64,000 nucleotides of DNA, taken from contig JAYWIR010000016.1 of the NCBI GenBank assembly GCA_036172245.1, forward strand, positions 1,550,001 through 1,614,000. Reading direction: 5' to 3'. The stretch's first letter is position 1. Every line of letters starts with the position of its first letter. Both the position numbers and the translations under genes were made by a program. This document shows positions 5,585-64,000 of the stretch, one piece after another. The stretch is from Raillietiella orientalis. Its lineage: Eukaryota. The notes beneath the pieces were generated by a model that had not been told where the DNA came from, did not search any database, and saw only the letters and a program-made list of their open reading frames with translations.

Positions 5585-5812
5585 TCCGGGAACTCGCGAC
5601 TCTCCTCACTTTTGGGTTCCTTTCGGAGAAGAAAAATGGAGCGGACCCCTCCGGGAGTCCTTCCGGAGAGAACAAAGAAGGGAATTTGTCTCGGGGTTTC
5701 CGTCGAAGACAACCAGGGTGGAGGTTCCCTTCGGGGATTCCTCCCCCTGCACGAGAGGAACGGACTCCCTTCTCCGCGGAGCTTTCCCTGGATTCATGGT
5801 CCCCTTCCGGGG
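5585..5812 (+). mobile_element. 3' tail fragment of the same SINE family
   Basis: GAGAAGAAAAATGGAGCGG...GAGGAACGGACTCCCTTCTCCG...TGGATTCATGG matches the reverse complement of 48962-49190 and 63550-63805. Confidence 0.65.
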
Positions 5813-8800
5813 CAGCACCTATCTTGAAGCGCACCCTCGGGTGACGTGGAACGACGTCAAAGACCTGCGTGAGCTGCCAGGAGCGCGATGGTTCTTGAGG
5901 TACTCAGCAAACCAAAAAAAAAATCCCTCGAGCTCCGACTTTGGGGAGGGGGGATCGAATGACCTGAAACCTCCCTGCTGCGTGCATATGTGCACGAAAT
6001 GGGGTGAGGGTGGAGTGGCATTTCTCCTGCAGGCAAGGGGACCCCAGTCTCGAACTTATCAGAGCTATCGCATCCAGGATTGAGGGATTCGTGGATTCTG
6101 TTCCCACGGGCCTCCAGTCCAGGAGAGACCTAACCCTTTCTCCTTTTAAGAGTCGGTGGGTGGTGGGTGGGAAATGGGAGGGAGAAAAGCTAGGCCGCTC
6201 CCATCAAGCCCCGAAGAACCTGGTGCGTCCTGCGAGCGACCTCGGCTCTCCTCCAAGAAGGTCCAGCTTCGGGAGAACCATCCCCTCCCCCCGCTCGTTT
6301 GGGGGTCGGTAGGAGAGGCTTCCCAGCGAGCGAGACGATTCCCACCTTCCTGCCTGCAAAGCCCAGGACACTCTCTAGAACACTCTCTAGACCCGGTGGG
6401 CTAACTGAGGGAGGCTGCGTGTGAGCGCAATCTCCGCAGATCCCCGAAGATCGACCCGGAGCACTGGAGGCGTTGCGCGCCTCCTAGGCTTGATCGCACT
6501 GACCAATCGTCGACCATCTGGCTCGGGAACCCTGTCGCCATCTTCCTCCGGACTTCTCGCGGAAACAATGGGAACTCTGAGGGGAAAACATAGGGGAGGA
6601 GAGTGAAGGTTGCGAAGATGGGCGCCAGGGATGGAGCTGCGCCGAGTGGGAGCTTCCCTGAGTCTCCGTTTCTTCCGACGTCTCCACAGAAAGTGGATCT
6701 TTGCATTTGGAGGTGGTTCCGCGGATGCTTCGCAGCCGGCCAGTTGAGCACTGGTCAATCGAACTCCATTTCCCCAGGTCTGGATCACCTTTTCTCACCG
6801 GATAGCTTTGAGACCCAACACCTAGTGGGGGAGGGAGGAGGAGGGAAGATGTCTCGCAGTGCCATCTTCGGAAGGTCCCCGATTGTTCCTGGAGCACCCA
6901 CCAACTCGCAGGTGTGTTCCAGAGACTCTCCTCGAGTCTTCTGGAACGCGGCGATGCCTGCAGTGGGATCCTGAGGCATCGGACTGCAGGATCGGGAAGC
7001 CTCCTGGTCAGCTTTATGGCGTCCGACCACGGGGCGGGGCTGAAGAGAGGGAATGAAAGGAGTAATGGGGTCACCCCGGATGAAAAAACTTTCGTCCAAC
7101 GGGGATGGAGAGGCTGCTGACCCCGCGTTCGAAGGTGGGGCACCCGCACAGGGCCACTCTGCTCAAGTCTCGTTCTTGATGCTCGCGCGCATGCGCGAGT
7201 ACTCGCTCAAGGATCCTGGCGCCTCGCCAGTCGACATCCCAACTCTTCTCCGCCAGCGGCAGAGGGCGGAGGACAGAGGAAGGGAATGCGAAAATGAAAA
7301 AAAAAGAAGGGAGGGGACGGGTTGAATCAAAGAGGGTAGAGTCCCGATTTCCAGCCCATCCCACCTGCGTTCCGGAGACAGGAGCTCAAGGGGCGACGAT
7401 GGTTCCTCCCTTCCCTCTTCCTCCCTCCTTTGAATTCCTCCTGGACATCCAGGTATCTCAGGCATCGGGAAGCTGGGAGCTCAGCATCGTGAAAGGATTG
7501 CAGAAGACGCGGCGACCTCAGAGCTGCCACGTCCTGAGCGGTGGATGCGCCCGCGGGCCTCTCAGCACCTCGCCGAGGCTCCCGCCCGCCCCTATGCGAA
7601 AGCCATGCCAGCGGGTGGGTGGAGGGAAAAAAGGGAGAAGGAACCACATGCGCTCGCCAACAGCTGAAGGGAGTGTCCTCGAGGAGGGAAGATGCATCTC
7701 GTCATCCCGTCCTCGGGCGCGCTCTCTCTCTCGGAAGACCGGACGGTCATCCGCGAGGGCAACGTCGCCACGAGACGGCGGGAAGCTACCGGCAGCAGCT
7801 TTTCCTGAGTGCCCGGCGACCGCCGCGTCGGAAGGAGGGGAGGGGGGGGGGGGGTAGCTGCGTCCGGCTGGGAACGCTCTGGTCCAGCCCGGTTCCGCAC
7901 CATCTGGTCTCTCACGGTCTGATGCCCCTTCTCTCCCGAAAAGCTCCGGTAAGAAATGCGTGCGCGCGTGCGCAGTTTTTTTGTTTTTTGCTTTTTGTCT
8001 CCGTTTTTCCTTCCTTCCTTCCCCCCCCCTCTTCCCTTCTCGGCCTGAGTTGCCCCGCGAAACGCCCGGTGGTCAACAAGAACGGATGCAGGCGAGCTGC
8101 ACTGGTCGGGGGGAGGGAACTCCGTCGCCGCCTGGGTGCCTCTCGGCCCGGCGTCGCACCCCGGAGAGCCCGTCCCAAGCGCCAGATACCCCCGCATCCT
8201 CCCTCCCTTTCCCTCTCCCCCGCGCGCGCGCGATCCGAATGAAGATTTCATCTCCGCATGATCGAGCGCACGCGTAAACAGGAGGGGACCGGCATTTCCC
8301 GCGCGCGCGACTCTCTCCCGCGGCGATCTCGGGTGCGTGCGTGCGTGCGCGCTTGGAACGAGGAAGCACTCAAACAGCGGAAGTGGCGGGGTGAGTGCTC
8401 CCCGCGCAGACGCGGTTGGCAGTCTCGACAGGAAGATTCCGTCGCGTTCCAGAAATTAGCACCGGACTGCTGGAGCTGCAAGGAGCCGGAGGAGACCGAG
8501 GAGGAAGAGGAGGAGGGACACAAGAAGAAGAACGGATGCTGCTGATGGTGATGATTTGCGAGAGGGGAGGAGGGGGAGAAGGGAAAGGGCGAGTTCGGGC
8601 GGAAGCCGGCGGCGTTCCTCTCCGAGAGGGAGATCCACGAGCGCACGGCCCCAACTCCGTCTCCGCGAGACGGCAGTCCAGCCTTCTTGGGAGACTGGAT
8701 TTCTGGATCGCGCGCCCGAGAGAGAATGCACTCTTCGGGAGACGCCTCGTCTTTCCAGATGTCCCTCCCTCTTCCCTCCCGAGCTGGAAAAGAAGGAATA

Positions 8801-11894: not shown

Positions 11895-12442
11895 TGGAGG
11901 GCGGCCGTAAGGCTGCTATCTGCTCTTGGCTCCAGGCGTTGCGGGTTCGAAACCCATTCGGGGAATAGGCGGCGCCGAGAAATGGGGGATGCGTCGTGGG
12001 TTTTGAGTTCCCTCCCCCCCCCCGCAGGATGACTCTGGTTGGTCTTTGAGCTTCGGGTGAGGCAATGGTGAAAGCTGGAGCTTCCTGAACCCCCGTTGAC
12101 TGGTTGGGCTTGGAAGCTGACCATCCGGGGTCCTTCCAGGAATCAAGGAACACCCGTTCCCTTTGGGTTTCCTCTCCAGTTGTGAAAATGGAGCCGTTGA
12201 TGCCCCCTCGGGGGATTGCCACTCCAGAAGTGTTAAAGAAGCGCGCTGCATGCTTCGGGGAGCTTTCCTTAGAGAAATTCGGAAGCGCCCCTTCGGGGTG
12301 CTCTTCAGAAGAGGAAACAGGAGCGGTTCCCTTGCGGACTCCCTCCGAAGAAGAAATTTAGGAGCAGATCCTTTCCGGATTTCCTTAGAAGAAGAAATGA
12401 GGAAGAGGTTCCCTTCGGAGACAACCATGGTCCCTCTGGGGT
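11895..12442 (+). mobile_element. tRNA-derived SINE, near full-length copy
   Basis: B-box GGGTTCGAAACCC at about 11943, shared body (GCAGGATGACTCTGGTTGG...CCTTCCAGGAATCAAGGA) and tandem ~40-nt tail. Alignable by eye with the copies at 42k, 46k and 51k. Confidence 0.75.
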
Positions 12443-12809: not shown

Positions 12810-15341
12810 TGCTGACTCCGTTCTGAGGAGATTTGGGATCGCCTCGCGACGATCCTGGGAATCCCGGCGGGCGGCCCGAGGGACATTTTCAGACTCCTCT
12901 TCGTGCGCAGTGCCGCACTACGTCAGCCGCGTCCCTCGCAGTTCTGTGCTGTCTTCGCGGGATAACGGCGGCCTGGGGCGCTGGAGTAAGAGGCCGAAAT
13001 GGCAGGGATGCCATCCCCCGGGGGCGGATCTTCCTGAGGACCACTTCGAGATGGCCCCATCTGGGCGAGATACGGACAGAACTTGCCAACATCCTGTTCA
13101 GTTCCCTCCCCTGTTTTCTTTGTTTATTTTTTTATTTTATTTTTGTTTTCCCTTCTCCCACGTTGCCGAAGCGGACCTCTCCTGCATGCACATCGCTCTT
13201 CGGCAGGTTCGTTGCACGTGTACCAATGTATTTTTATTACTTTACGTAACAAATGCCCCGGCATAACCGGGTGATCATCATCATCTATGGTTTGGATCCT
13301 AAAAGAGTCCAGCCAGAGGTTTATTTTCCTTGCAGCGGATGTGAATCCATTCAAGTGCGCTCGCTTCCGGAAAGCTCATGGGCTTTGTGAATCGCCGCCG
13401 TGGTCAGCGGTCTTCTCTTCGACCCGCCGATCTTTGCCAGGAGCGTTCCCATCAAGGGTGTGCCAGATTTCTTTGGTAATCCTGAAGGGGGGGAACGGGA
13501 GGCGGTTCCGACCGTAAAGCTTGCTGCGCACGGCTCCTCTTTACTGACCTGCGCGACGGGCTGCCGTAGGCCGTTCGGCGAGTATCTCCACTGGGGTGCT
13601 TGCGTTTCTGCGCTCAGCTTCCTTGCGGCAAGAAGACTCGACGATCCAGATCTTGTGCGACCCCGGGCTCGATGGCAAGGTGCGACTCCTTGGGGAATGC
13701 GCTTCCCGAGGCGATTCACATCTCTGAACGGGCTCTCAGGATTCGTCACACATCAATGGACCCGCTCGTCTGCTGAAGAGCGGGGTTGTAGGACGTGACT
13801 GAGAAGGTCGAGATCGGAAAATCGTTCCAGAAGAACCTGAGAGCTCTTTTCCGGGAGTCTCGCAAGGAGCTGCGTCCTGGCATGTCCGCGCCGTTCCACG
13901 CAGCGGTAAATCCCGTTCGCAAGTGCAGCTCCCTTCCTGCTCTCTCAAGCATTTGATTCGAAACGGAAAGAGCAGGAAAGGCTGGCCACCGGGCTGTCGC
14001 GCCGGCTTCCGCGCGAGCCGTTGAACTGCGCCGTGCGGCACTGGGCGTTGATCACCGCAAGCGCACGCGCGTCGTTCGTTCGAGTCCTCAGGGCGCATGC
14101 GTTGGTCTGGTTCTTTTCGGGGCCGCTTCCGCCTCCTCCTACGGGTGCTGGACGTGCCGGTGTCTCCGCTGTCCGTGCTCACCAAACTCACCTGCCCGCG
14201 CCAGCTTGCCTCTCCCTCTTCCCTCTCTTCCGAGAACAGTGGTGACCCGCATTTGCAAGGAGGTAGTTCCAAGTTGTCGCAGCTTGGCCTAAAAGTAGGA
14301 CTGTTCTTTGCGGGTTGCGCGACGAGAGTCCGCACCCATGCTGGGAAGCAGCAGGAATTTCCAGACGGCTACAAGAAAGGACCGCAAAAGACCCGAAATC
14401 AGCTTCAGCTCTTTCACTTTCTTGGGAAACCATGATAACTGAGTCAGGAGATCTCGGTAAGCCTCCAAAATCGCCGAAACATAGGGAGGCGGATGCGCGA
14501 TCTCTTCTCGGAAGGTAGAGGTCACGGGGGTGCGCAGAGGAGAAGCAGCTGTCGAAGGAGCCGAGGGCTTCCTATGAAAACCAAGTGGTGAAGGGAATCC
14601 AGGGCAGGAGCGGTTCGGGAACGCCAACCCAGACCGGGACAGAATGGCGGAAGTATGCTCGTGATGCTGGATTCGGAATGACCTCACAGGGACGACGGAA
14701 AGAGAAGGCCCTCGCGGAGCAGGGAAGGTCCCCTTCTCGCAGTCGGGAAGAGGGGAGGATCCCTCGGCTGCAGGAGTGGCTTAGGTACGGGAAAAGATTC
14801 CCCGAAGGAGCGCCCATACGGTCCGCCGTCCTCGCGCAACGCGACACCTCCGCCGAGGCGCAAAGTGGATGCGCAAAGTGGATGGGCGAGATATCCGAGG
14901 CGCCTTCCCTTCCGTTGCGTTCTGGCATGCATGACACGGACCCCCGAGCTCCTTTTCATGAATGACCATTAAAGATTGCAGGGTCTACACCGGAGTAATT
15001 ACCGGATATTTTCTCTTCATAGCAAAATATTAGCCATAGAGAATTGACACCAATCAAGGCTCCGGCAGTCAGTTAATTTGGCAACCCGGCAATTAGCAGA
15101 CGAGCGCGCCTCCATATTTATTTTCCTTTTTTTTTTTGTCTTTCTTTGTATTCCGCGCCTCTTCTTCCAGTACTGAGATGTGTGCGATGCACATCTTGCG
15201 ACCGGCTCTCATGTACCGTGAGGCGTTTGTCCTTTTCATTTGAATGAACATCGTGCAGATTACCGGCATTATCCTTCACTACTGATGCATCGTCTCCGTA
15301 GAATAAGAGAACAATGATAGCACTTAAAAGCAGCAGACTGT

Positions 15342-16795
15342 GACCTCCGTCATAGCCGTAGCCTTCACGGAAGACCCCTGCCAGCGATGAGAGCACGTTC
15401 ATACAATTATTCGATGTCTCCAAAATCTCATATCCTCTCTCCAGTTTGAAAAAAAAAAAAAAAAAATACAGGAAGAAGAAGAAGAAGAAAAAGAAAATGT
15501 CGCTCTCTTGTTTTCCTCACCGTTAAACACGGGGAAGCTTCGCGCAAAGCCACGACACTAACACGAGGCAGGCGCTGTGCCCCCAGGCGGCAGGGCAAGG
15601 GACAGCGCGTGCACCTGTTGCGGGAGCACATGCGTGCCAATGTCTCATGCTACTGCTGCTGATGATAATGATGACGACGATGATGATGCAGACCGCAGCC
15701 CTGATTTCTGCGGAAAGAGACCCTCACGCCTCTGCAACGGTGCAAAGGTCAAACCACTGTCACTCTTCGCACCTGCGCAAGCGTAGCAGTGGCACGACCT
15801 TCCCGACCGCAAACAGCAGCAGCAGCACCCGCGCTCTGCGAAGCGACAGCTGCCTTTCTTCCTCCCTTCCGTCTTCCCTCCGCAGTCGTCTGGGGCAGAC
15901 GATGCCGATCCGGAGCGGCCCGGGAACGCTCCGTGCCGGGCAGCCCAACGTACCCGGCCGCGCGTGCGGACGCGCAGAGAACCTCGTGGTGCGTCTGGTC
16001 GGATCCCGCGTGCCCTCCCCTCGCACGCCGCGCCGAGCAGCACGGCAACCGTTTTTCGATAGTCCCTGGGGCGCGAGAGCAGCTACCGGAAGCCGCCCTC
16101 TCTGGCGTCTCCGGCGAACGGGAAGCTGCGCCTCCGTCCTCCGGAGAGTCAGGGCTCCTGTCCGCCCGCTGCTCTTGCCAGACGGTCGCGCGGGCTTCCT
16201 GCGGGAGACCGGTCGTAGCAGCTCCACACGCTCGCAGAGGGCTGTGCGCCCGCAGGAAGAGCGGACGGCACCTCGCTCGCGGGTGCTCGACCCGGGGTCC
16301 CTAGTTCGAAGAGGCACGCGGAAACGCGGACTTCGGCCGGGAGAGCGTGGCAGCAGGCAGGTGCGTCGTCGCATCGCTCCCGAGCAGGACGAGGGGAGCC
16401 AGCGGCAAAGGAGTCACGGAGACCGCTCCAGCCTTTCCGCGGAGCTTTCCCGCGACGGCGGAGACCCCGCGCGGCTTGCACTGCGGACTGGTAGCCTCCC
16501 GCTCGCTCGCCCCCTGCCGGAAGCAGGAGTCCGGCGCTGCGGACTGAGGCCGGGCTCGCGCTGCGTGAGCTTCGGCCCCCCTCCGTGGGGTCAGGGTGTC
16601 TCCCTCGGGTGCGATGCAGACGATGCGAGATGCAGGAGGCGCCGCAGCTTCGATGGCTCCGCGAGCGATCCTTAGCTGCGGAAGCTGTCTGCGTGGAGTC
16701 GCTGTGGGCTCCCTGGCAGCCGTGTGACTTCACCGGAGGCGCGCGGCGCGGTCGTGTTCCCGGTGCCGGCGTCTCGCGTCGCAAGGCGCGCGTGC
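15342..16795 (+). repeat. Left arm of 1.45 kb inverted repeat
   Basis: Reverse complement of 54504-55956. The same ORF translations appear on opposite strands (342 aa at 15647+ and 55652-). Only three differences noticed: A-run 18 vs 17, and substitutions at 16140 and 16784. Contains an A-tract, (GAA)n and (GAT/GAC)n. Confidence 0.97.
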
Positions 16796-42370: not shown

Positions 42371-42645
42371 TCGTTTTCACAGCCGGAGGGGAATCCTGAA
42401 GGGAACCGACTCCTTGATTCCTGGAAGGATCACGGAGGCTCAACCTCCAATCCCGGCCAGTCGACGGAGGCATCCGGTTTCCGGCTGCTTCCACCAGTTC
42501 CTCATCCAAATAGGCCAACCAGAGTCATCCTGCGGAGAGGACTCGAAACCCAAGACGTACCCACTTCTCGGCGTCGATCCTTCCCCAGGCGGGATTCGAA
42601 CTCGCAACGGCTAGTGCCACGGCAAGGCCACAGGGCCGCCGACGC
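42371..42645 (-). mobile_element. tRNA-derived SINE (head and body)
   Basis: Minus strand reads GCGTCGGCGGCCCTGTGG...GAGTTCGAATCCC...ATCGACGCCGAGAA...GCAGGATGACTCTGGTTGG...CCTTCCAGGAATCAAGGA. Confidence 0.8.
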
Positions 42646-46300: not shown

Positions 46301-46494
46301 GCGCTCTCGGCATCCCTTTGAATAAAGTAGCGATCCCCGCCATTTTCCTCAACGGTTTAGCACTTCTCTCCCCTTACTCGAGTGGAACTGAACGTTTGAA
46401 GTTTTGTGGATGCCGAGGGCGATGCGATGCTGCAGCCTGGACCGGGTCTGAGTCCACGCTTCGTACGAAACAGAGTAAGTCGGCGTAACTCTTG

Positions 46495-47043
46495 GTAGGG
46501 AACACCGAATTTCTTCCTTATTTTCTACGGAGGGGTTCCCTGGAAGGGACCACTCCCCATTTCTTCTTCTATGGGAACCCGGAATATATCTGCCCCTTGT
46601 TTGCTCCTCTGAAAGGAGCTCTGAAGGGACCAAATTTCTCCGAAGAACGCTCCTCGAAGGGAGAAGCGAAGCTTCCTACAGTATGGAGAGGCAATCCCCC
46701 TCTGGAGGCCATCATCCAGCTCTATGGTACATGATGGACGCGCTCCATTTGCACAATCAGAGGGGAACCCCGGAGGGAACCGACTGGAAGAACTCTGGAG
46801 CCATTTTTAACTTTCAACCCTGACCAGTCAATGGAGGCATTCGGCTTCCGGATGCTTCCACCAGTGCTGAGCCTACAGGTCAAGTTTTCAACTAGCAATA
46901 ATACAGGTCAACCAGCATCATTCTGCGGATGGCACTTGAAACCCAAGACGTACCTATTTCTCGGCGTCAATCTCTACGTGGAGATACGAACCCTCAACGT
47001 TTGGCACCACATGCGGAGATCTCAGCCACACGGCCGCCAACGC
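46495..47043 (-). mobile_element. tRNA-derived SINE, near full-length diverged copy
   Basis: Minus strand reads GCGTTGGCGGCCGTGTGG...GGGTTCGTATC...TTGACGCCGAGAAATAGGTACGTCTTGGGTTTC, then the shared body and tail. Confidence 0.75.
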
Positions 47044-48730: not shown

Positions 48731-48961
48731 CCCGCGCAACTGCCGTCTTGGCAGGTTGGTTTCGAGGCTTCCTCGGAGGAAAGCGCGGTGACTTTTGATG
48801 ACGAAAATCCTTTTGGGTTCTTCTCTGCCTTTCCAGCTTTTGGGGGGGGGGGGTGCCAGATACCTCAAGAACCGTTGCGCGCCTGGTGGCCTACGCAGCT
48901 CTTTGACGCTGTCCACTCCACTCGAGGGGGAGTGTACTTCTAGATAGTATCCCGGGACGGA

Positions 48962-49190
48962 ATAGCACCCTATGAATCCAGGAAGGGTTCCATAGAATGG
49001 GGTCCGTTCCTTTCAAGCCTGAGGAGGGATCCCAAAGGGAACCACCACCTTGTCTGTCTCCGAAGTAACCCTAAAGGGAATCTCCTTTCTTGTTCTCTCC
49101 GGAGGGCCTTCTGGAGTGATCCGCTCCATTTTTTCTACTTGGAGGGAACCCTCAAAAGATCCGCTATTATGAATTTCTTCTACGGAGGGA
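48962..49190 (-). mobile_element. 3' tail fragment of the SINE family
   Basis: CACCCTATGAATCCAGGAAGGG...GTCCGTTCCT is shared with about 63564-63610; TCCGCTCCATTTTT is shared with the 5.6k copy. Confidence 0.65.
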
Positions 49191-50659: not shown

Positions 50660-51128
50660 CAACTCCGGAGGGAACCCGCGAGGGAACCGCTGCTGTTTAC
50701 TCTTCTGAAGGAAGCCCAAAAAGGACGCTTCCTTTTTTCTCTGAGGGACGTTCCCCGTAGGGAGCGGCACGCTTCTCTGTACTCTGGAGAAGTAACAACA
50801 CACCTACTCCATGGTACGAGACGGAGGGTCCCCCTCGAAGGAAGGGTCCGCTCCTTTGCACGAGCGGAGGGAAACTCCGACTCCTCGATTCCTGGCAGAA
50901 TCCGGAGGGTCGACTCTCAATCTCCGCCGGTCATCGGAGGCATCCAGTTTGAACCGCCACCGGCGCCGCACCAGAATGCAGGCCAACCAGCGTCATCTTG
51001 GCAGGAGGAACTCGAACCCACGACGCACCCCCCATCTCGGCGTCGATCCTTCCCGGGGTGGGATTCGAACCCTTGGTGACGCTTGGCTGTGCCACGCGTA
51101 GAGAACGCAGCCACGTGGCCACCGACGC
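50660..51128 (-). mobile_element. tRNA-derived SINE
   Basis: Minus strand reads GCGTCGGTGGCCACGTGG (A-box)...GGGTTCGAATCCC (B-box)...ATCGACGCCGAGATGGG..., then the body and part of the tail. Confidence 0.8.
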
Positions 51129-54503: not shown

Positions 54504-55956
54504 GCACGCGCGCCATGCGACGCGAGACGCCGGCACCGGGAACACGACCGCGCCGCGCGCCTCCGGTGAAGTCACACGGCTGCCAGGGAGCCCACAGCGA
54601 CTCCACGCAGACAGCTTCCGCAGCTAAGGATCGCTCGCGGAGCCATCGAAGCTGCGGCGCCTCCTGCATCTCGCATCGTCTGCATCGCACCCGAGGGAGA
54701 CACCCTGACCCCACGGAGGGGGGCCGAAGCTCACGCAGCGCGAGCCCGGCCTCAGTCCGCAGCGCCGGACTCCTGCTTCCGGCAGGGGGCGAGCGAGCGG
54801 GAGGCTACCAGTCCGCAGTGCAAGCCGCGCGGGGTCTCCGCCGTCGCGGGAAAGCTCCGCGGAAAGGCTGGAGCGGTCTCCGTGACTCCTTTGCCGCTGG
54901 CTCCCCTCGTCCTGCTCGGGAGCGATGCGACGACGCACCTGCCTGCTGCCACGCTCTCCCGGCCGAAGTCCGCGTTTCCGCGTGCCTCTTCGAACTAGGG
55001 ACCCCGGGTCGAGCACCCGCGAGCGAGGTGCCGTCCGCTCTTCCTGCGGGCGCACAGCCCTCTGCGAGCGTGTGGAGCTGCTACGACCGGTCTCCCGCAG
55101 GAAGCCCGCGCGACCGTCTGGCAAGAGCAGCGGGCGGACAGGAGCCCTGACTCTCCGGCGGACGGAGGCGCAGCTTCCCGTTCGCCGGAGACGCCAGAGA
55201 GGGCGGCTTCCGGTAGCTGCTCTCGCGCCCCAGGGACTATCGAAAAACGGTTGCCGTGCTGCTCGGCGCGGCGTGCGAGGGGAGGGCACGCGGGATCCGA
55301 CCAGACGCACCACGAGGTTCTCTGCGCGTCCGCACGCGCGGCCGGGTACGTTGGGCTGCCCGGCACGGAGCGTTCCCGGGCCGCTCCGGATCGGCATCGT
55401 CTGCCCCAGACGACTGCGGAGGGAAGACGGAAGGGAGGAAGAAAGGCAGCTGTCGCTTCGCAGAGCGCGGGTGCTGCTGCTGCTGTTTGCGGTCGGGAAG
55501 GTCGTGCCACTGCTACGCTTGCGCAGGTGCGAAGAGTGACAGTGGTTTGACCTTTGCACCGTTGCAGAGGCGTGAGGGTCTCTTTCCGCAGAAATCAGGG
55601 CTGCGGTCTGCATCATCATCGTCGTCATCATTATCATCAGCAGCAGTAGCATGAGACATTGGCACGCATGTGCTCCCGCAACAGGTGCACGCGCTGTCCC
55701 TTGCCCTGCCGCCTGGGGGCACAGCGCCTGCCTCGTGTTAGTGTCGTGGCTTTGCGCGAAGCTTCCCCGTGTTTAACGGTGAGGAAAACAAGAGAGCGAC
55801 ATTTTCTTTTTCTTCTTCTTCTTCTTCCTGTATTTTTTTTTTTTTTTTTCAAACTGGAGAGAGGATATGAGATTTTGGAGACATCGAATAATTGTATGAA
55901 CGTGCTCTCATCGCTGGCAGGGGTCTTCCGTGAAGGCTACGGCTATGACGGAGGTC
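54504..55956 (-). repeat. Right arm of 1.45 kb inverted repeat
   Basis: Reverse complement of 15342-16795. Begins about 470 nt downstream of the flamingo stop codon. Confidence 0.97.
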
Positions 55957-56425
55957 GCGGTCTCCTTCGAAGTGGCACCGCTGTTACGTTCCGAATGCTT
56001 CTGTCACGTGCTCCCCTTTACAGATACAGAGAGCAGAGAGACTCTGAACTCCGTAAAGGTGCTCTGAATGCGCTGCTTTTGCCTGTTGCGGTTGACCTTG
56101 GTTTCTTTCCACTGAAGGCAGGGTCAAGTGCACATACACGGCTGGAAGGAAACACCACAAACGGAGAGGTCGAACGAAAGGTTGGTGGTTTGGAACCACG
56201 CCTCTATGGGACGCGATGTTTTCTCGGCACGGGTCCGGGTGGCTCCTCCGCTCGCCGAGAGACAAGAGACGGGCACCTCGCTCTGCTTGTTCGTCTTCAT
56301 TGCATTCTTGTGCCCTTTTTCGATCTTCACACGGACGTGAAGGTGAGGAAGGAGTTGGTCAGCTCAATCCTCTCTGAAAACCCATCATTGATGTTTGCCT
56401 GAAGAGGAGGTTTCTTTTTCTGTCC

Positions 56426-59400: not shown

Positions 59401-62400
59401 GCTCGAAAGGGGGGGTGAAAGTGTCCGCCTGGTTCTGAATGATAACTCTCAGATACTGGAGGACGGCCTGTAGCAGCTGTTCCGGCCCTATCTCTGACAC
59501 TTCGGCCACTCTCTTCCACAGCGCCTGCCTGCTTGTTCTGACGACGCTGCTGATGCTCCTGAAAATGTTCTGGGACCCGGGATGGTGTCACCCCGGCCGA
59601 ATGATGGAGTCTTACGTGGATGAAATATTTATCCTGTCTGTGAGAAAGGTTGAGGCCACGCTGGACGATTTCCCGGTGGAGGATGTAGTAGAGAAGCTTG
59701 CCGGCTATTAAGAAGTCCGAACCGTACAGGGAGCGGCTCCCATTCAGGATCGTGCTCAGGTCTTCCGCCAGCTTCACAGTCATGTAGCTCGTGAGCTCAA
59801 GCTCCGACTTCTCCAGCTTCACCAGCTAAAGGAGATCACAGAGGGTGTGGGATTGAGGTCACTCCCACCGCAAGTACCATGTCTCTCAGCTGGATGAAGC
59901 TCTTGGACAAGCAGTCGAACATATCCGGTTCCATCCACCCAGTGCTTTTGTTGCAGTTTCTCTTGGCTCTCCCCCTGGACCCTTCCGGACACTCCTCTAT
60001 GGAGATCTGATCGAAGTAGGTCCTGCTCCACCAGATTCCTTCCGCTTTGTTCCGGGGACACCCGTCGTATATCACTGAGAGCCACGGGTTAGGGAAAGAA
60101 GTCAGAGCAGTGCTCCTCACCCTGGCAACCATGGGAAGTGACCTCGGCGAACGCGTGGGCGCAAGAGTCGCACTTCAGGCCGGTGATGCCGGAGTTGCAT
60201 CGGCACTGCCCCGTGCGGATGTCACACTTGAAATCCTGGGACCCGACTGCGTAGCAGTCACACGGCTGGCAAACGGAAGAGTTGGGTAGGAGATAGTGGT
60301 TGGGGCGGCAGTAGCACTCTCCCGTGGTCTTGTTGCAGTTGGAGTCGTAGCCTAGGTGCGTCGAGCAGTTGCACGGTCCACAGATGGGATAGCCCCACCA
60401 GTGGACAGGACAAGGCTGGAGTACACTCTCCTCGCAGTGGAGCCCTGGTGAACCCGAAATTCGAGGGAGGGGCTCCTTCCGCATTCCCACCTTGATGTAG
60501 AGGTGAGCCACACTGGCAGAAGTACCCGCTGGAGTGCCTCCTGTCCTGCACGCAGGTGCCGTTGTTGCTGCAGGGCTCGAAGTCGCAGATGTTGCGGCAG
60601 TTGTTGCCGATGAACCCTGAAGAGACAAAAGGTTGTTCGTGGGAGGAGTAAGAAAGGGGATCAGCAGTGATCCCACCCTAAGTTTTAGTGAAATACAAAC
60701 TCAGCTAACCGCTGTAGCAGCTGCACTGGTAATCTCCCCACAGATCTGTGCAGGAGCTCTGAGGAGGGCACCTCGAAAACGAACACCCCTGCAGTGCACT
60801 GCAGCCCTCTTTCACGTTGCTCTTCACGGTGTTCTGCAGCCAAAACCTGTCGCTGGAACTTATCCTGATATCCTGGAAATCAGAACGTTCCTCCCCGAGG
60901 AAGCCTCCCTGGAGACTGGTCACCTTGAGGCACCCTTGGAAACCATCCAGGTCACGTTCCCCAGATTCCAGGCCTCCCACAGATATTCGGCTGATGTACA
61001 GACCCTCTACCATCATGGCCGTGTACTGAGTGATCTCATAGTGGCCATAATCGATGCTTATCCAGATCTCATGGTTCATCCACTTGACCTCCACGTTGTG
61101 CCAGGAGCCGTCGTTCAGCTTCACGATGTCGACCACCATTTTTTCCGGCCCGTGCTTGTAAACGACGTACCCCTGCTCCATCTACGATGGATTTGAGGCA
61201 ACGCGGTTACTCTGCAATTCTCCTCGTGCCTACCATGAGTACGGATTGCAGGCTGGGGTCCATCTGAAAATCCAGGAGGAGGCAGTCGAGCTGGCGTGTG
61301 CGGATGGATAAGCTGAAACTCCAAGGGATCTGAATGGGGTGAAAGGTTGGAGAGAAGACCAAGTATCCATTTCCGAAGAACTGGCGGATGTGATCCACCC
61401 CTAAAGAAGAGACGAAGAAAAAAAAAATGGTATTGAGGGTCTCGGTAATGTCTGGCAAGGTTCATACGAAGACACCAATGTTTGCATCATACCTTTTGTG
61501 TCATCCGCTAGAGCTAACGGCAAAAGAAACGCATTATTGACAGAGAAATGTACACAGCACGCTCTCTGCACATCCACGCAGTCCACTACCAACTTGAGCA
61601 TTTTAAAAAAAAGCTCTCAGAGTGCACACATACACGAGAACCACAAGAAATTCTTCACTCACTTTTGGAGCAGTCTTTGTTCCCCCATCCTAGTGGGCAG
61701 TTGCACAAATAGGTGTCCCAACCTTCGATGCACTCCCCTCCATTACGACAAGGTTTCGAAGCACAGTGGCTCTTCTTCGGGGCGCACCCCTGACTGGTTC
61801 CATTTTCTGCAACGAAGCTGAAGGAAATTCGGGGATCGATAGCTTTCGTTTCCCCCCTTTCCCGAGTTGGGAACCTTTCATGGTCCTCCAGGATACTCAC
61901 ACGTTCAAATCTTGCAGGCGACTATCGATGGAGAAGTCGGAGATGCAGCCGACAAAGGATGATGTGGTGATCTGGAAAGCGAGGGGAAGGGAAGGTAGGC
62001 CTCCCAAATGCAGTGGACCGGTGAGGTCCAGGAATCTCTGGCAGCTCTGAGTGAGGGAAGAGCACCTGTGGAGGGATGAAAAAAAAGAAAATGAAGAATC
62101 CTCTTATGTCGAAGAATGGATGAGAGGGAAAAAAAAAAGTCTTCTCAACCTCGGTTCTAGAACGTGCTCCGTGCGGTTGATGCAAGAGAAATCGTCGGTG
62201 AACCTGTCAAAGTGCGGCGGCAGGCTGACGCAGTCGTCCACGCTCAGGACCGCTACCTTTGAAAGCATGGCGTTCTTGCGGTTAACGGTCAGAGAGCCCT
62301 CCTTACTCTATTCAGGTAATTCACCGACACGGTGTGCCACTGACCGTCGCTAACGCCACCGAGGGGACTGACGGTCACCTGATCGGTGGAAGACCCCAGG

Positions 62401-63389
62401 GAGAAGGAAAACCGTATGCCCCTGTCGACTATCTCCAGGGCGACGAAGTCGTGTCTCTGGTTGTAGCGCCCGTTGTAGAGCAGGAGGCCGTTACTCCCCC
62501 TGGTGGCGAACCTGGAGGAAGAACCCATGCAGACTGGAGGGAAGAGGGGAACGGGTCTCTTCACCTGAGCGACAAATGAAACCTGTTCCTCTTGTGCATC
62601 CCTTCCAGCATGAGGAAGGAACCGTTCGCGAAGTTCCTCGCCTTGAGCTCGCAGAACTCGGTGGAAAATTCCAGCATGGTGCAGTTTTCGCAGATGATGG
62701 CGCTGCCGGAGGGGGATGAGCACAGGGCGTCCGCCTTGCACAACCCTTCGTGGCACTGGTACACGGGCGTCTCGCAGGTTTCCCCTGGGGGCATAGTCAG
62801 ACCGCTTGGATCGAACCTCCATGCTCCGCGAACCGGTAAATCCCGCGGGGCAAACGCACGTGAATCCCCTTTCCTTCCTCCTGCAGAGACCATGGTTCTG
62901 GCAGGGGCTGGAGTAGCACAGGTTGATCTCGGCGTCGCACTCGTAGTATTCCTTCATCCCTGGAATGAGATCCGCCCTCTTGCCCGTGGAGCTTTTCCTT
63001 CCAGGCACCTGTAAACCCTTCGGGGCACTGGCATGAGAAGGTGTTCACCGGGTAGATGGGGCGGAACAGGATGTAGTCGGTGTTCACGAACGCACCCGCC
63101 CTCCCGAACTTCAGGACAGAGTGGCACTCCTCAAAGTTCAGGCATGGTTCTTGGACGCAGAGGTCGTCGTCGAAAGGCAGCACCTTCGGTGTGCGCGTCA
63201 GGCAAGCGCCAACCACCACCACCCTCCGCGGGAGCTCACCTCCACGGAAGCCAGGCGTCCCAGAGCGTGCCGGTTCAGGTACAGCTTTTCCTGGAGTCGG
63301 CGCGGGTCGTGGAACAAATCACGGGATCCGCTGGGAAGCTTGACGGAGAAACTCACGTTCAGGATGCTTTCCTCCACGTCGTGATCATC
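56426..63389 (-). CDS. stan: Flamingo/starry night (CELSR-family adhesion GPCR), 3' part; 5' cadherin exons lie beyond the window end
   Basis: 26 phase-consistent exons on -: 63240-63389, 63009-63183, 62834-62959, 62565-62784, 62307-62511, 62150-62256, 61901-62065, 61663-61817, 61234-61400, 60924-61181, 60710-60872, 60491-60616, 60121-60444, 59878-60074, 59616-59825, 59383-59569, 58868-59324, 58664-58811, 58362-58583, 58096-58316, 57879-58025, 57541-57778, 57233-57345, 57120-57179, 56874-57058, 56426-56817 (5118 nt). Domain order: ILNVSFS/LQEKLYLNR, VLPFDDDLCVQEPCLNFEEC, EGF, LamG (FATRGSNGLLLYNGRYN), EGF, LamG, EGF, laminin-EGF (CPVHWWGYPICGPC), HRM (YDGCPRNKAEGIWWSRT), GAIN/GPS, 7TM (LYRMLTELRDVNH), tail with STTSR and LASSHSSDED motifs. 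The last three exons are less certain. Confidence 0.95.
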
Positions 63390-63549
63390 CTGGAAGCAGA
63401 GATGCCGAAGATCACTCATCGCTCAGGGAGAGAGGTGCGACGGCATCCTGTACGAACACCCCGGCTCCGTTCGCCTGGCGGTTCACGAAACTCTTTGATG
63501 CTGTCCATGAGACTCGAGGGTGCGTGTTAGCTCTTCAATTTAGGGGGTA

Positions 63550-63805
63550 CCCCGGGGAGAGGCCACCCTATGAATCCAAGAAGGGCTCCGGAGAAAGGAG
63601 TCCGTTCCTCTGGCGCCTGAGAAAGAACCCCGGAGGCAACCTCTTCCTTATTCTCTCCGGCCCCTCCAGAGGGAGCTGCGAAAAGAACCTAGAAAGGTTC
63701 CGCTCCTGGAATTTCTTCTCCGGAAGGAACAAACATGGAAATGCTCCCTGTTTCCTCCTCTGAAGAGAACCCCGAAGGGACGCTTCCAAACTTTCTCTGA
63801 AGATG
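63550..63805 (-). mobile_element. 3' tail fragment of the SINE family, in a flamingo intron
   Basis: Minus strand GGAAGCGTCCCTTCGGGGTTCTCTTCAGAGGAGGAAACAGG matches about 12281-12321. Confidence 0.7.
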
Positions 63806-63828
63806 GAATATTTCCTCAGGAAGGACTC

Positions 63829-64000
63829 TGAAAGGTTTCCAATTCGGGAAAGGGGGGAAACGAAAGCTATCGATCCTCGAATTTCCTTCAGCTTCGTTGC
63901 AGAAAATGGAACCAGTCAGGGGTGCGCCCTGAAGAAGAGCCACTGTGCTTCGAAACCTTGTCGTAATGGAGGGGAGTGCATCGGAGGCTGGGACACCTAT
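63829..64000 (+). repeat. Inverted duplicate of a flamingo intron end plus EGF exon (source 61709-61880); runs off the window end
   Basis: TGAAAGGTTTCCAATTCGGG...TTCAGCTTCGTTGCAGAAAATGGAACC...GGACACCTAT matches the minus strand of 61709-61880 with about 6 substitutions in 172 nt. Confidence 0.93.

What the first reader, a model, noticed from the sequence alone, without database searches (positions are those of the whole stretch)
61709..64000. Antisense copy of a flamingo exon and its splice acceptor inside an upstream intron of the same gene
Seen: 63829-64000 is an inverted copy (about 6 mismatches in 172 nt) of 61709-61880, covering most of the 83-nt intron, the 3' splice site and most of the EGF exon FVAENGTSQGC. 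It abuts a SINE tail and continues past the window. Inference: the pre-mRNA could fold into a 170+ bp duplex that masks this acceptor and loops out seven exons, allowing exon skipping, A-to-I editing or endo-siRNA production.
Basis: partly seen in the sequence, partly recalled or inferred. Interest (0 to 1): 0.75.

Follow-up and report, generated by a model that had tools for sequence, protein, structure and literature searches.

The report
Backwards flamingo exon captured in repeat
A 286-base backwards copy of one whole flamingo exon sits inside a common repeat element in an upstream intron of the same gene; it is likely an ordinary DNA-repair scar of a known kind that is frequent in this genome, and although it is predicted to pair with the original exon in unspliced RNA, no effect on splicing has been shown.

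Summary
Window 63822-64107 (it runs 107 nt past the window) is an 89%-identical inverted copy of 61606-61887. It holds the whole 155-nt EGF exon, 70 nt of the upstream intron and 57 nt of the downstream intron; the copied donor GT is lost. Only these two copies were found in the genome. The copy interrupts a SINE-like repeat: 23 of 27 other copies lack the insert, and the junctions show microhomology plus about 25 nt of filler. This fits a repair-mediated duplication (PMC2671141, which already reports an exon copied backwards into its own gene's intron). Such two-copy local duplicates are common here: 21 pair rows in 870 kb. The scan has noted like cases in other genes of this genome (UNC5, RIM-BP, neurobeachin, tolloid). 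The core is 96% identical and the outer 101 nt 80%, which suggests later gene conversion. A strong RNA duplex around seven exons is predicted, but every splicing outcome I tested breaks the reading frame, and I saw no sign of selection on pairing. No RNA data were available. Verdict: a new member of a known kind, probably neutral; a 1148-nt circular RNA is a cheap test.

The parts
61606..61887 (-). Source (donor) arm: 70 nt of intron H/I with the 3' splice site, all of EGF exon I (61663-61817), and 57 nt of intron I/J with the 5' splice site
61663..61817 (-). Flamingo EGF exon I, 155 nt, phase 2 in and phase 1 out
   Evidence: CELSR1 match; flamingo-like homologues
61818..61900 (-). 83-nt intron H/I; its donor (GT at 61900) lies 13-20 nt outside the duplicated arm
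61901..63389 (-). Seven exons B-H between the arms (63389-63240, 63183-63009, 62959-62834, 62784-62565, 62511-62307, 62256-62150, 62065-61901); 1148 nt in all, the predicted circle
63822..64000 (+). Inverted copy (acceptor arm), the part inside the window; it continues to window-equivalent 64107 (G000:C16:1614107). The core near this end is about 96% identical, the outer 101 columns about 80%; the copied donor GT reads CT
63804..63828 (-). About 25 nt of filler between the end of the clear copy and the resumed repeat; it includes a few bases of weak similarity to the source (BLAST extends the arm to 63822)
63467..63803 (-). 3' part of the interrupted SINE-like repeat; its 5' part lies beyond the window at window-equivalent 64108 to about 64440
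63390..64000 (-). Window part of the 2744-nt host intron A/B (window-equivalent 66133-63390)

Best explanation
A 286-base inverted copy of a flamingo exon interrupts a SINE-like repeat in an upstream intron of the same gene; it was likely captured when a DNA break in the repeat was repaired from the template 1.9 kb away, was probably partly re-homogenised by gene conversion later, and is likely neutral. Steps: (1, shown) an intact flamingo exon and an interrupted repeat lie 1.9 kb apart in one gene. (2, inferred from the junctions) a broken end in the repeat annealed through a short TCAGAG-containing microhomology to intron I/J, copied about 280 nt through exon I into intron H/I, and rejoined the other repeat end with about 25 nt of filler and a short target repeat. 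(3, partly shown) the copy decayed: donor GT lost, conserved residues changed. (4, inferred) the 185-nt inner part was later overwritten by conversion between the arms, leaving an older, 80%-identical outer shoulder. (5, predicted) in the fraction of nascent transcripts where intron A/B is still attached when exon I is made, the arms pair. The likely products are by-products (some circular RNA, some editing, some NMD-bound mis-splicing), not a selected switch.
For: Only two copies in the genome. The insert splits an abundant repeat (3697 first-look candidates). 23 of 27 other top-scoring repeat loci span the site without a gap of 20 nt or more, and run X1 has contigs of other family members that join across the site (3787 to 4108/4111). 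Microhomology and filler lie at the junctions. Size (286 nt) and distance (1.9 kb) lie inside the ranges published for repair-mediated duplications (up to 619 bp; 753 of 1136 under 3 kb; PMC2671141). Background: 21 low-copy pair rows in 870 kb, 12 under 10 kb apart, none between contigs; 4 of 4 other arms tested have a single full-length partner genome-wide. Divergence is uneven along the arm: 20 events in 101 columns versus 8 in 185, permutation p=0.003. Shoulders are seen in 18 of 21 rows, with the same transition:transversion ratio as the cores (100:51 versus 91:45). At 4 of 7 changed residues homologues share the source residue, not the copy's. Mismatches break rather than keep pairing (14 A.C versus 5 G.U). 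Every mis-splicing outcome tested breaks the frame.
Against: No related genome or allele without the insert was available, so the empty site is inferred from repeat paralogues, not from the orthologous locus. The best-preserved part of the copy is exactly the part facing the 3' splice site and the 5' half of the exon, which a selection model would also predict. The predicted duplex is very strong, so some RNA effect is plausible. At one residue homologues favour the copy (Q 3 versus K 0) and at one they are split (D 6 versus N 4). Short 25-nt 'shoulders' may be BLAST end effects or junction homeology rather than conversion. The inversion bias among close pairs shrinks from 10:2 (p=0.039) to 7:2 once three rows of one palindrome are merged and this pair is left out.
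Confidence: 0.8

Rival explanations
1. Co-opted RNA-pairing element. The copy pairs with exon I, masks its acceptor and donor, leaves the donor of exon H free next to the stem, and so drives back-splicing of exons B-H (1148-nt circle) or NMD-coupled skipping that tunes flamingo dose, or directs A-to-I recoding of the EGF exon.
For: Duplex of -472.6 kcal/mol; 253 of 275 bases paired in the segment MFE. Donor H lies just outside the arm and the other arm about 430 nt upstream of acceptor B, the layout of reverse-complementary matches that promote back-splicing and skipping (PMC8330042, abstract only). Six exonic A residues face a C in the duplex; ADAR's preference for A.C mismatches is recalled, not from a call. 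The highest identity lies over the 3' splice site.
Against: The arm is a chance-type insertion among many in this genome. There is no excess of pairing-preserving G.U changes. Conversion explains the conserved core without selection, as in non-genic-looking pairs. All linear outcomes tested are frameshifts or an immediate stop, costly for a core planar-polarity gene (established knowledge).
Confidence: 0.1
2. Single recent capture with an error-prone or homeologous end, and no later conversion: the 80% shoulder arose during the copying itself.
For: Ragged ends are general here (18 of 21 rows); junction-proximal errors in template switching are recalled from the MMBIR literature, not from a call.
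Against: The shoulder is 101 nt of unique flamingo sequence at 20% divergence, rich in transitions (13 ts, 6 tv) and with two 2-nt slippage-type insertions. That is the spectrum of slow mutation, and it matches the cores' ratio across pairs.
Confidence: 0.07
3. Assembly artefact (a mis-joined or duplicated fragment).
For: No independent reads cover the arms.
Against: The arms differ at 28 events in 286 columns, and the copy is flanked by the two colinear halves of one repeat with filler. An assembler does not build that.
Confidence: 0.02

Closest known systems
Repair-mediated duplications (RDs) by capture of proximal DNA, SDSA-type (Pace et al. 2009, PMC2671141; read: abstract, search passages, sections 6, 12, 14; supplements not opened)
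   Same: A transposable element interrupted by a sequence found at one other place, donor within 5 kb, 50-619 bp long, with microhomology, filler and a short target repeat. [quoted passage not shown]
   Different: An invertebrate-type genome rather than a vertebrate one. The local density of close two-copy pairs looks much higher (about 10 per Mb of all sequence here, versus 0.08-0.65 per Mb of TE DNA in vertebrates; methods differ, not like for like). The arm has a homogenised core with a diverged shoulder.
Reverse-complementary matches flanking circularised or skipped exons (PMC8330042, abstract and outline only)
   Same: Inverted arms in one pre-mRNA bracket a block of exons.
   Different: One arm is itself an exon with both splice sites, not intron sequence. 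No circle, skipping or conservation has been shown here.
Editing-site complementary sequences (ECS) for ADAR (recalled, not from a call)
   Same: An intronic sequence complementary to an exon, with A.C mismatches.
   Different: Known ECSs are conserved across species and shown by editing data; neither could be shown here.
Arm-to-arm gene conversion in inverted repeats and palindromes (search listing only; mechanism recalled)
   Same: Near-identical core between inverted arms with a diverged edge.
   Different: Arms of 0.3 kb inside one gene, not kb-to-Mb amplicons; conversion is inferred, not polarised.

Membership tests
Repair-mediated duplication (PMC2671141) | A transposable element interrupted by an insertion of at least 50 bp, with both halves colinear and in the same orientation | tested here: met
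   both halves on the minus strand; 23 of 27 other loci span the site
Repair-mediated duplication (PMC2671141) | [quoted passage not shown] | tested here: met
   2 matches (lower bound; the tool scores only the best candidates)
Repair-mediated duplication (PMC2671141) | Donor within 5 kb and more than 50 bp away | tested here: met
   1935 nt between the arms
Repair-mediated duplication (PMC2671141) | Breakpoint signatures: microhomology, filler, small deletion or target duplication; no poly-A tail | tested here: met
   TCAGAG shared by repeat and source at one junction and repeated at the other, about 25 nt filler; intron sequence is copied, so not a processed mRNA. The A-run at one end is templated by the source.
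Repair-mediated duplication (PMC2671141) | Empty orthologous site in a related genome | not testable with these tools
   No relatives held; only paralogous repeat copies could be used
tRNA-derived SINE (host repeat) | tRNA-like head with Pol III A and B boxes | tested here: inconclusive
   A B-box-like motif is visible in several copies and degraded in the host copy (box consensus recalled). Rfam finds no tRNA match in the host or in one fuller copy.
Reverse-complementary match driving circRNA or skipping | Stable pairing between arms that flank the exon block | tested here: met
   (prediction only)
Reverse-complementary match driving circRNA or skipping | Back-splice or skipping junction in RNA that depends on the arms | not testable with these tools
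   No RNA run available
ADAR editing-site complementary sequence | A-to-G differences between RNA and DNA in the paired exon, and cross-species conservation of the intronic arm | not testable with these tools
   No RNA run, no related genome

The most novel reading that the evidence does not exclude
This animal makes local inverted duplicates at a rate far above that reported for vertebrates and keeps their cores identical by ongoing conversion. Many essential genes therefore carry long exon-versus-intron hairpins in their pre-mRNA. At flamingo the capture has created a working switch that masks exon I and back-splices exons B-H into a 1148-nt circle, or recodes the EGF exon at its A.C mismatches: a regulatory RNA structure born from one repair event.
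Probability: 0.1. Interest if true: 0.7.

Novelty: new member of a known kind. Interest (0 to 1): 0.27.

Why it matters
As a single locus it is ordinary: a clean, well-anchored example of repair-mediated duplication, with donor and acceptor identifiable because the copy interrupts a repeat. Its value is as a test case. The genome holds many such pairs, so it offers a natural experiment on how much exon-masking double-stranded RNA an essential gene tolerates, and on whether circles or editing sites arise directly from repair scars. At this locus the predictions are exact: one back-splice junction (61901 joined to 63389) and six exonic A.C positions.

Tried and rejected
Sequencing runs: no RNA holder listed; one DNA-type run with a small share. 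Laid on the locus, it gave no cover on the source arm and only repeat-family contigs near the copy, so it says nothing on expression or on the duplicate itself. A homologue search with the 51-aa exon against longer proteins found none at E<=1e-6; that search stops at 2000 residues, so I used the representatives search instead. The source region has no unusual fold of its own (z=-0.24). My first exon map had four wrong boundaries and 10 stops and was corrected; the exon lengths are superseded, while its duplex, mismatch and codon results do not depend on them. Coding constraint on the copy: 5 of 12 exon substitutions are silent (hand count) against 0.23-0.28 expected, too few to tell. Origin from an edited RNA template was rejected: A>G (7) is matched by C>T (7)'s list, and introns are copied. 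A capture hotspot in this repeat was rejected: no other of 27 loci has a large insert at the site (two gaps of 21 and 39 nt, two partial copies), and none of 28 loci showed a local repeat of 60 nt or more. Long terminal inverted repeats of a transposon were rejected for the background pairs: 4 of 4 arms tested are two-copy and no target duplication was evident on inspection. A staggered-break inversion was rejected: the gene and the repeat are colinear across both arms. A fifth background block was not obtained. Literature: searches; one search lists 9 papers with the term 'repair-mediated duplication' and none of the titles concerns an arthropod survey (listings only); one search listed no paper on a flamingo circular RNA among 10 of 202 shown. 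These searches are narrow and do not show absence from print.

Full report
Observation. The window is G000:C16:1550001-1614000. With the next genome stretch added, the copy ends at window-equivalent 64107: 286 columns at 89.2% against 61606-61887. A genome search with the source region gave 2 matches, the source and this copy.

Gene context. The gene lies on the minus strand. The source exon (61817-61663) matches CELSR1 over residues 1-50 and flamingo-like proteins at up to 57% identity. Exons B-H (150, 175, 126, 220, 205, 107, 165 nt; 1148 nt in all) lie between the arms, all GT-AG with an open frame. The host intron is 2744 nt. The copy holds 70 nt of intron H/I with the acceptor, the whole exon and 57 nt of intron I/J; its donor reads CT. 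The donor of exon H is outside the arm.

Host repeat and junctions. The copy is not next to a repeat but inside one. Aligned with six uninterrupted copies from the surrounding 120 kb, the host repeat runs 5' part, insert, 3' part on the minus strand. The family is abundant (3697 first-look candidates, 40 scored). With one natural copy as probe, 23 of 27 other top-scoring loci span the site with no gap of 20 nt or more; two are partial and two have gaps of 21 and 39 nt. Contigs of run X1 from other family members also join across the site. At one junction the repeat and the flamingo intron share a TCAGAG-containing microhomology; at the other, about 25 nt of filler precede a second TCAGAG where the repeat resumes. 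A B-box-like motif is visible in several copies, but Rfam finds no tRNA head, so I call it SINE-like.

Divergence. A change-point test gives 20 events in the outer 101 columns and 8 in the inner 185 (p=0.003). Ten codons differ, seven with a residue change. Among 32 alignments from the 50 long proteins of 150 hits (lower rows may be a neighbouring EGF), the source residue is the shared one at 4 positions (3:0, 12:0, 5:0, 12:1), one is split (4:6), one is matched by neither and one favours the copy (0:3). The copy is therefore mostly the decaying side. In the predicted RNA duplex the transitions give 14 A.C mismatches and 5 G.U wobbles (p=0.064), so nothing suggests selection to keep pairing.

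Background. In 870 kb from four contigs (the block around the window and three blocks picked by arbitrary coordinates) there are 21 low-copy pair rows of at least 150 nt and 84% identity, and none between contigs. Twelve rows lie under 10 kb apart, 10 inverted and 2 direct (p=0.039). Three of those rows are pieces of one palindrome and one is this pair, which leaves 7:2 among other events. Several distant rows on C1 also belong to one cluster, so rows overstate events. Four of four arms tested have one full-length partner genome-wide. In 18 of 21 rows one end is significantly more diverged than the core, and shoulders and cores have the same transition:transversion ratio (100:51 and 91:45). 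This fits older duplicates whose cores are refreshed by conversion, though the shortest shoulders may be alignment-end effects. Earlier notes of this scan describe like inverted exon copies in UNC5, RIM-BP, neurobeachin, tolloid, phantom and V-ATPase genes of this genome and ragged-edged duplicates. I did not check those loci; my own sample shows the class independently.

RNA consequences. The arms are predicted to pair at -472.6 kcal/mol, against -75.0 and -83.9 alone, and 253 of 275 source bases pair with the copy in the MFE of the 2701-nt segment. Pairing needs intron A/B to be still attached about 1.8 kb of transcription later; this is plausible for some transcripts (inference). Skipping exon I, skipping B-H and skipping B-I all shift the frame, and retention of the 83-nt intron stops translation at once. 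No productive isoform can arise from these events. The one distinctive product would be a B-H circle, since donor H stays outside the stem; reverse-complementary matches promote both back-splicing and skipping in C. elegans (PMC8330042, abstract only). None of this could be tested on RNA.

Comparison with what is known. PMC2671141 (abstract, passages and sections 6, 12, 14 read; supplements not opened) defines repair-mediated duplications as transposable elements interrupted by a sequence found at one other place. Of 1136 human cases, 824 had the donor within 5 kb, up to 619 bp long, with microhomology, filler or target duplication at the ends. [quoted passage not shown] This locus meets every defining feature I could test; the empty orthologous site could not be tested. 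What differs is the lineage, the apparent density (about 10 close pairs per Mb here against 0.08-0.65 per Mb of TE DNA in vertebrates, by different methods) and the converted core.

Verdict. Real, correctly described apart from its extent and its position inside the repeat. It is a new member of a known kind, most likely a neutral repair scar (0.8). A co-opted splicing or editing switch is not excluded (0.1) and is cheap to test. Interest 0.27.

Noticed in passing
window 15332-16795 and 54504-55966: A 1464-nt inverted duplicate at 99.6% identity, 37.7 kb apart, two-copy in the genome, with the few mismatches mostly at the ends.
   Followed up: partly
G000:C16:1634636-1635594 and 1641323-1642282 (L005, L006): A 960-nt inverted two-copy duplicate at 99%, 5.7 kb apart, just downstream of the window.
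   Followed up: partly
870-kb sample on C1, C3, C7, C16 (L039-L113 plus window and L003-L008): Genome-wide class of local two-copy duplicates, 21 rows, with near-identical cores and diverged edges in 18; close ones are mostly inverted; arms are more GC-rich than their flanks in 14 of 21. This class may be more interesting than any single locus.
   Followed up: partly
G000:C3:3000001-3012024 (L099, L100): A palindrome with arms of at least 4.7 kb at about 99% identity around a 2.4-kb spacer; it extends beyond the fetched block.
   Followed up: no
G000:C1:4047548-4120647 (L063-L071): A cluster of overlapping direct and inverted 0.4-2.2-kb duplicates spread over about 70 kb.
   Followed up: no
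G000:C7:1090071-1090387 (L088): A 322-nt self-complementary hairpin-like palindrome at 85%.
   Followed up: no
window 11928-12418, 42374-42619, 46488-46972, 50663-51114, 5606-5902, 48861-49158: Further copies or fragments of the same SINE-like family in the window, about 65-80% alike; several show a B-box-like motif at the head, with no Rfam tRNA match.
   Followed up: partly
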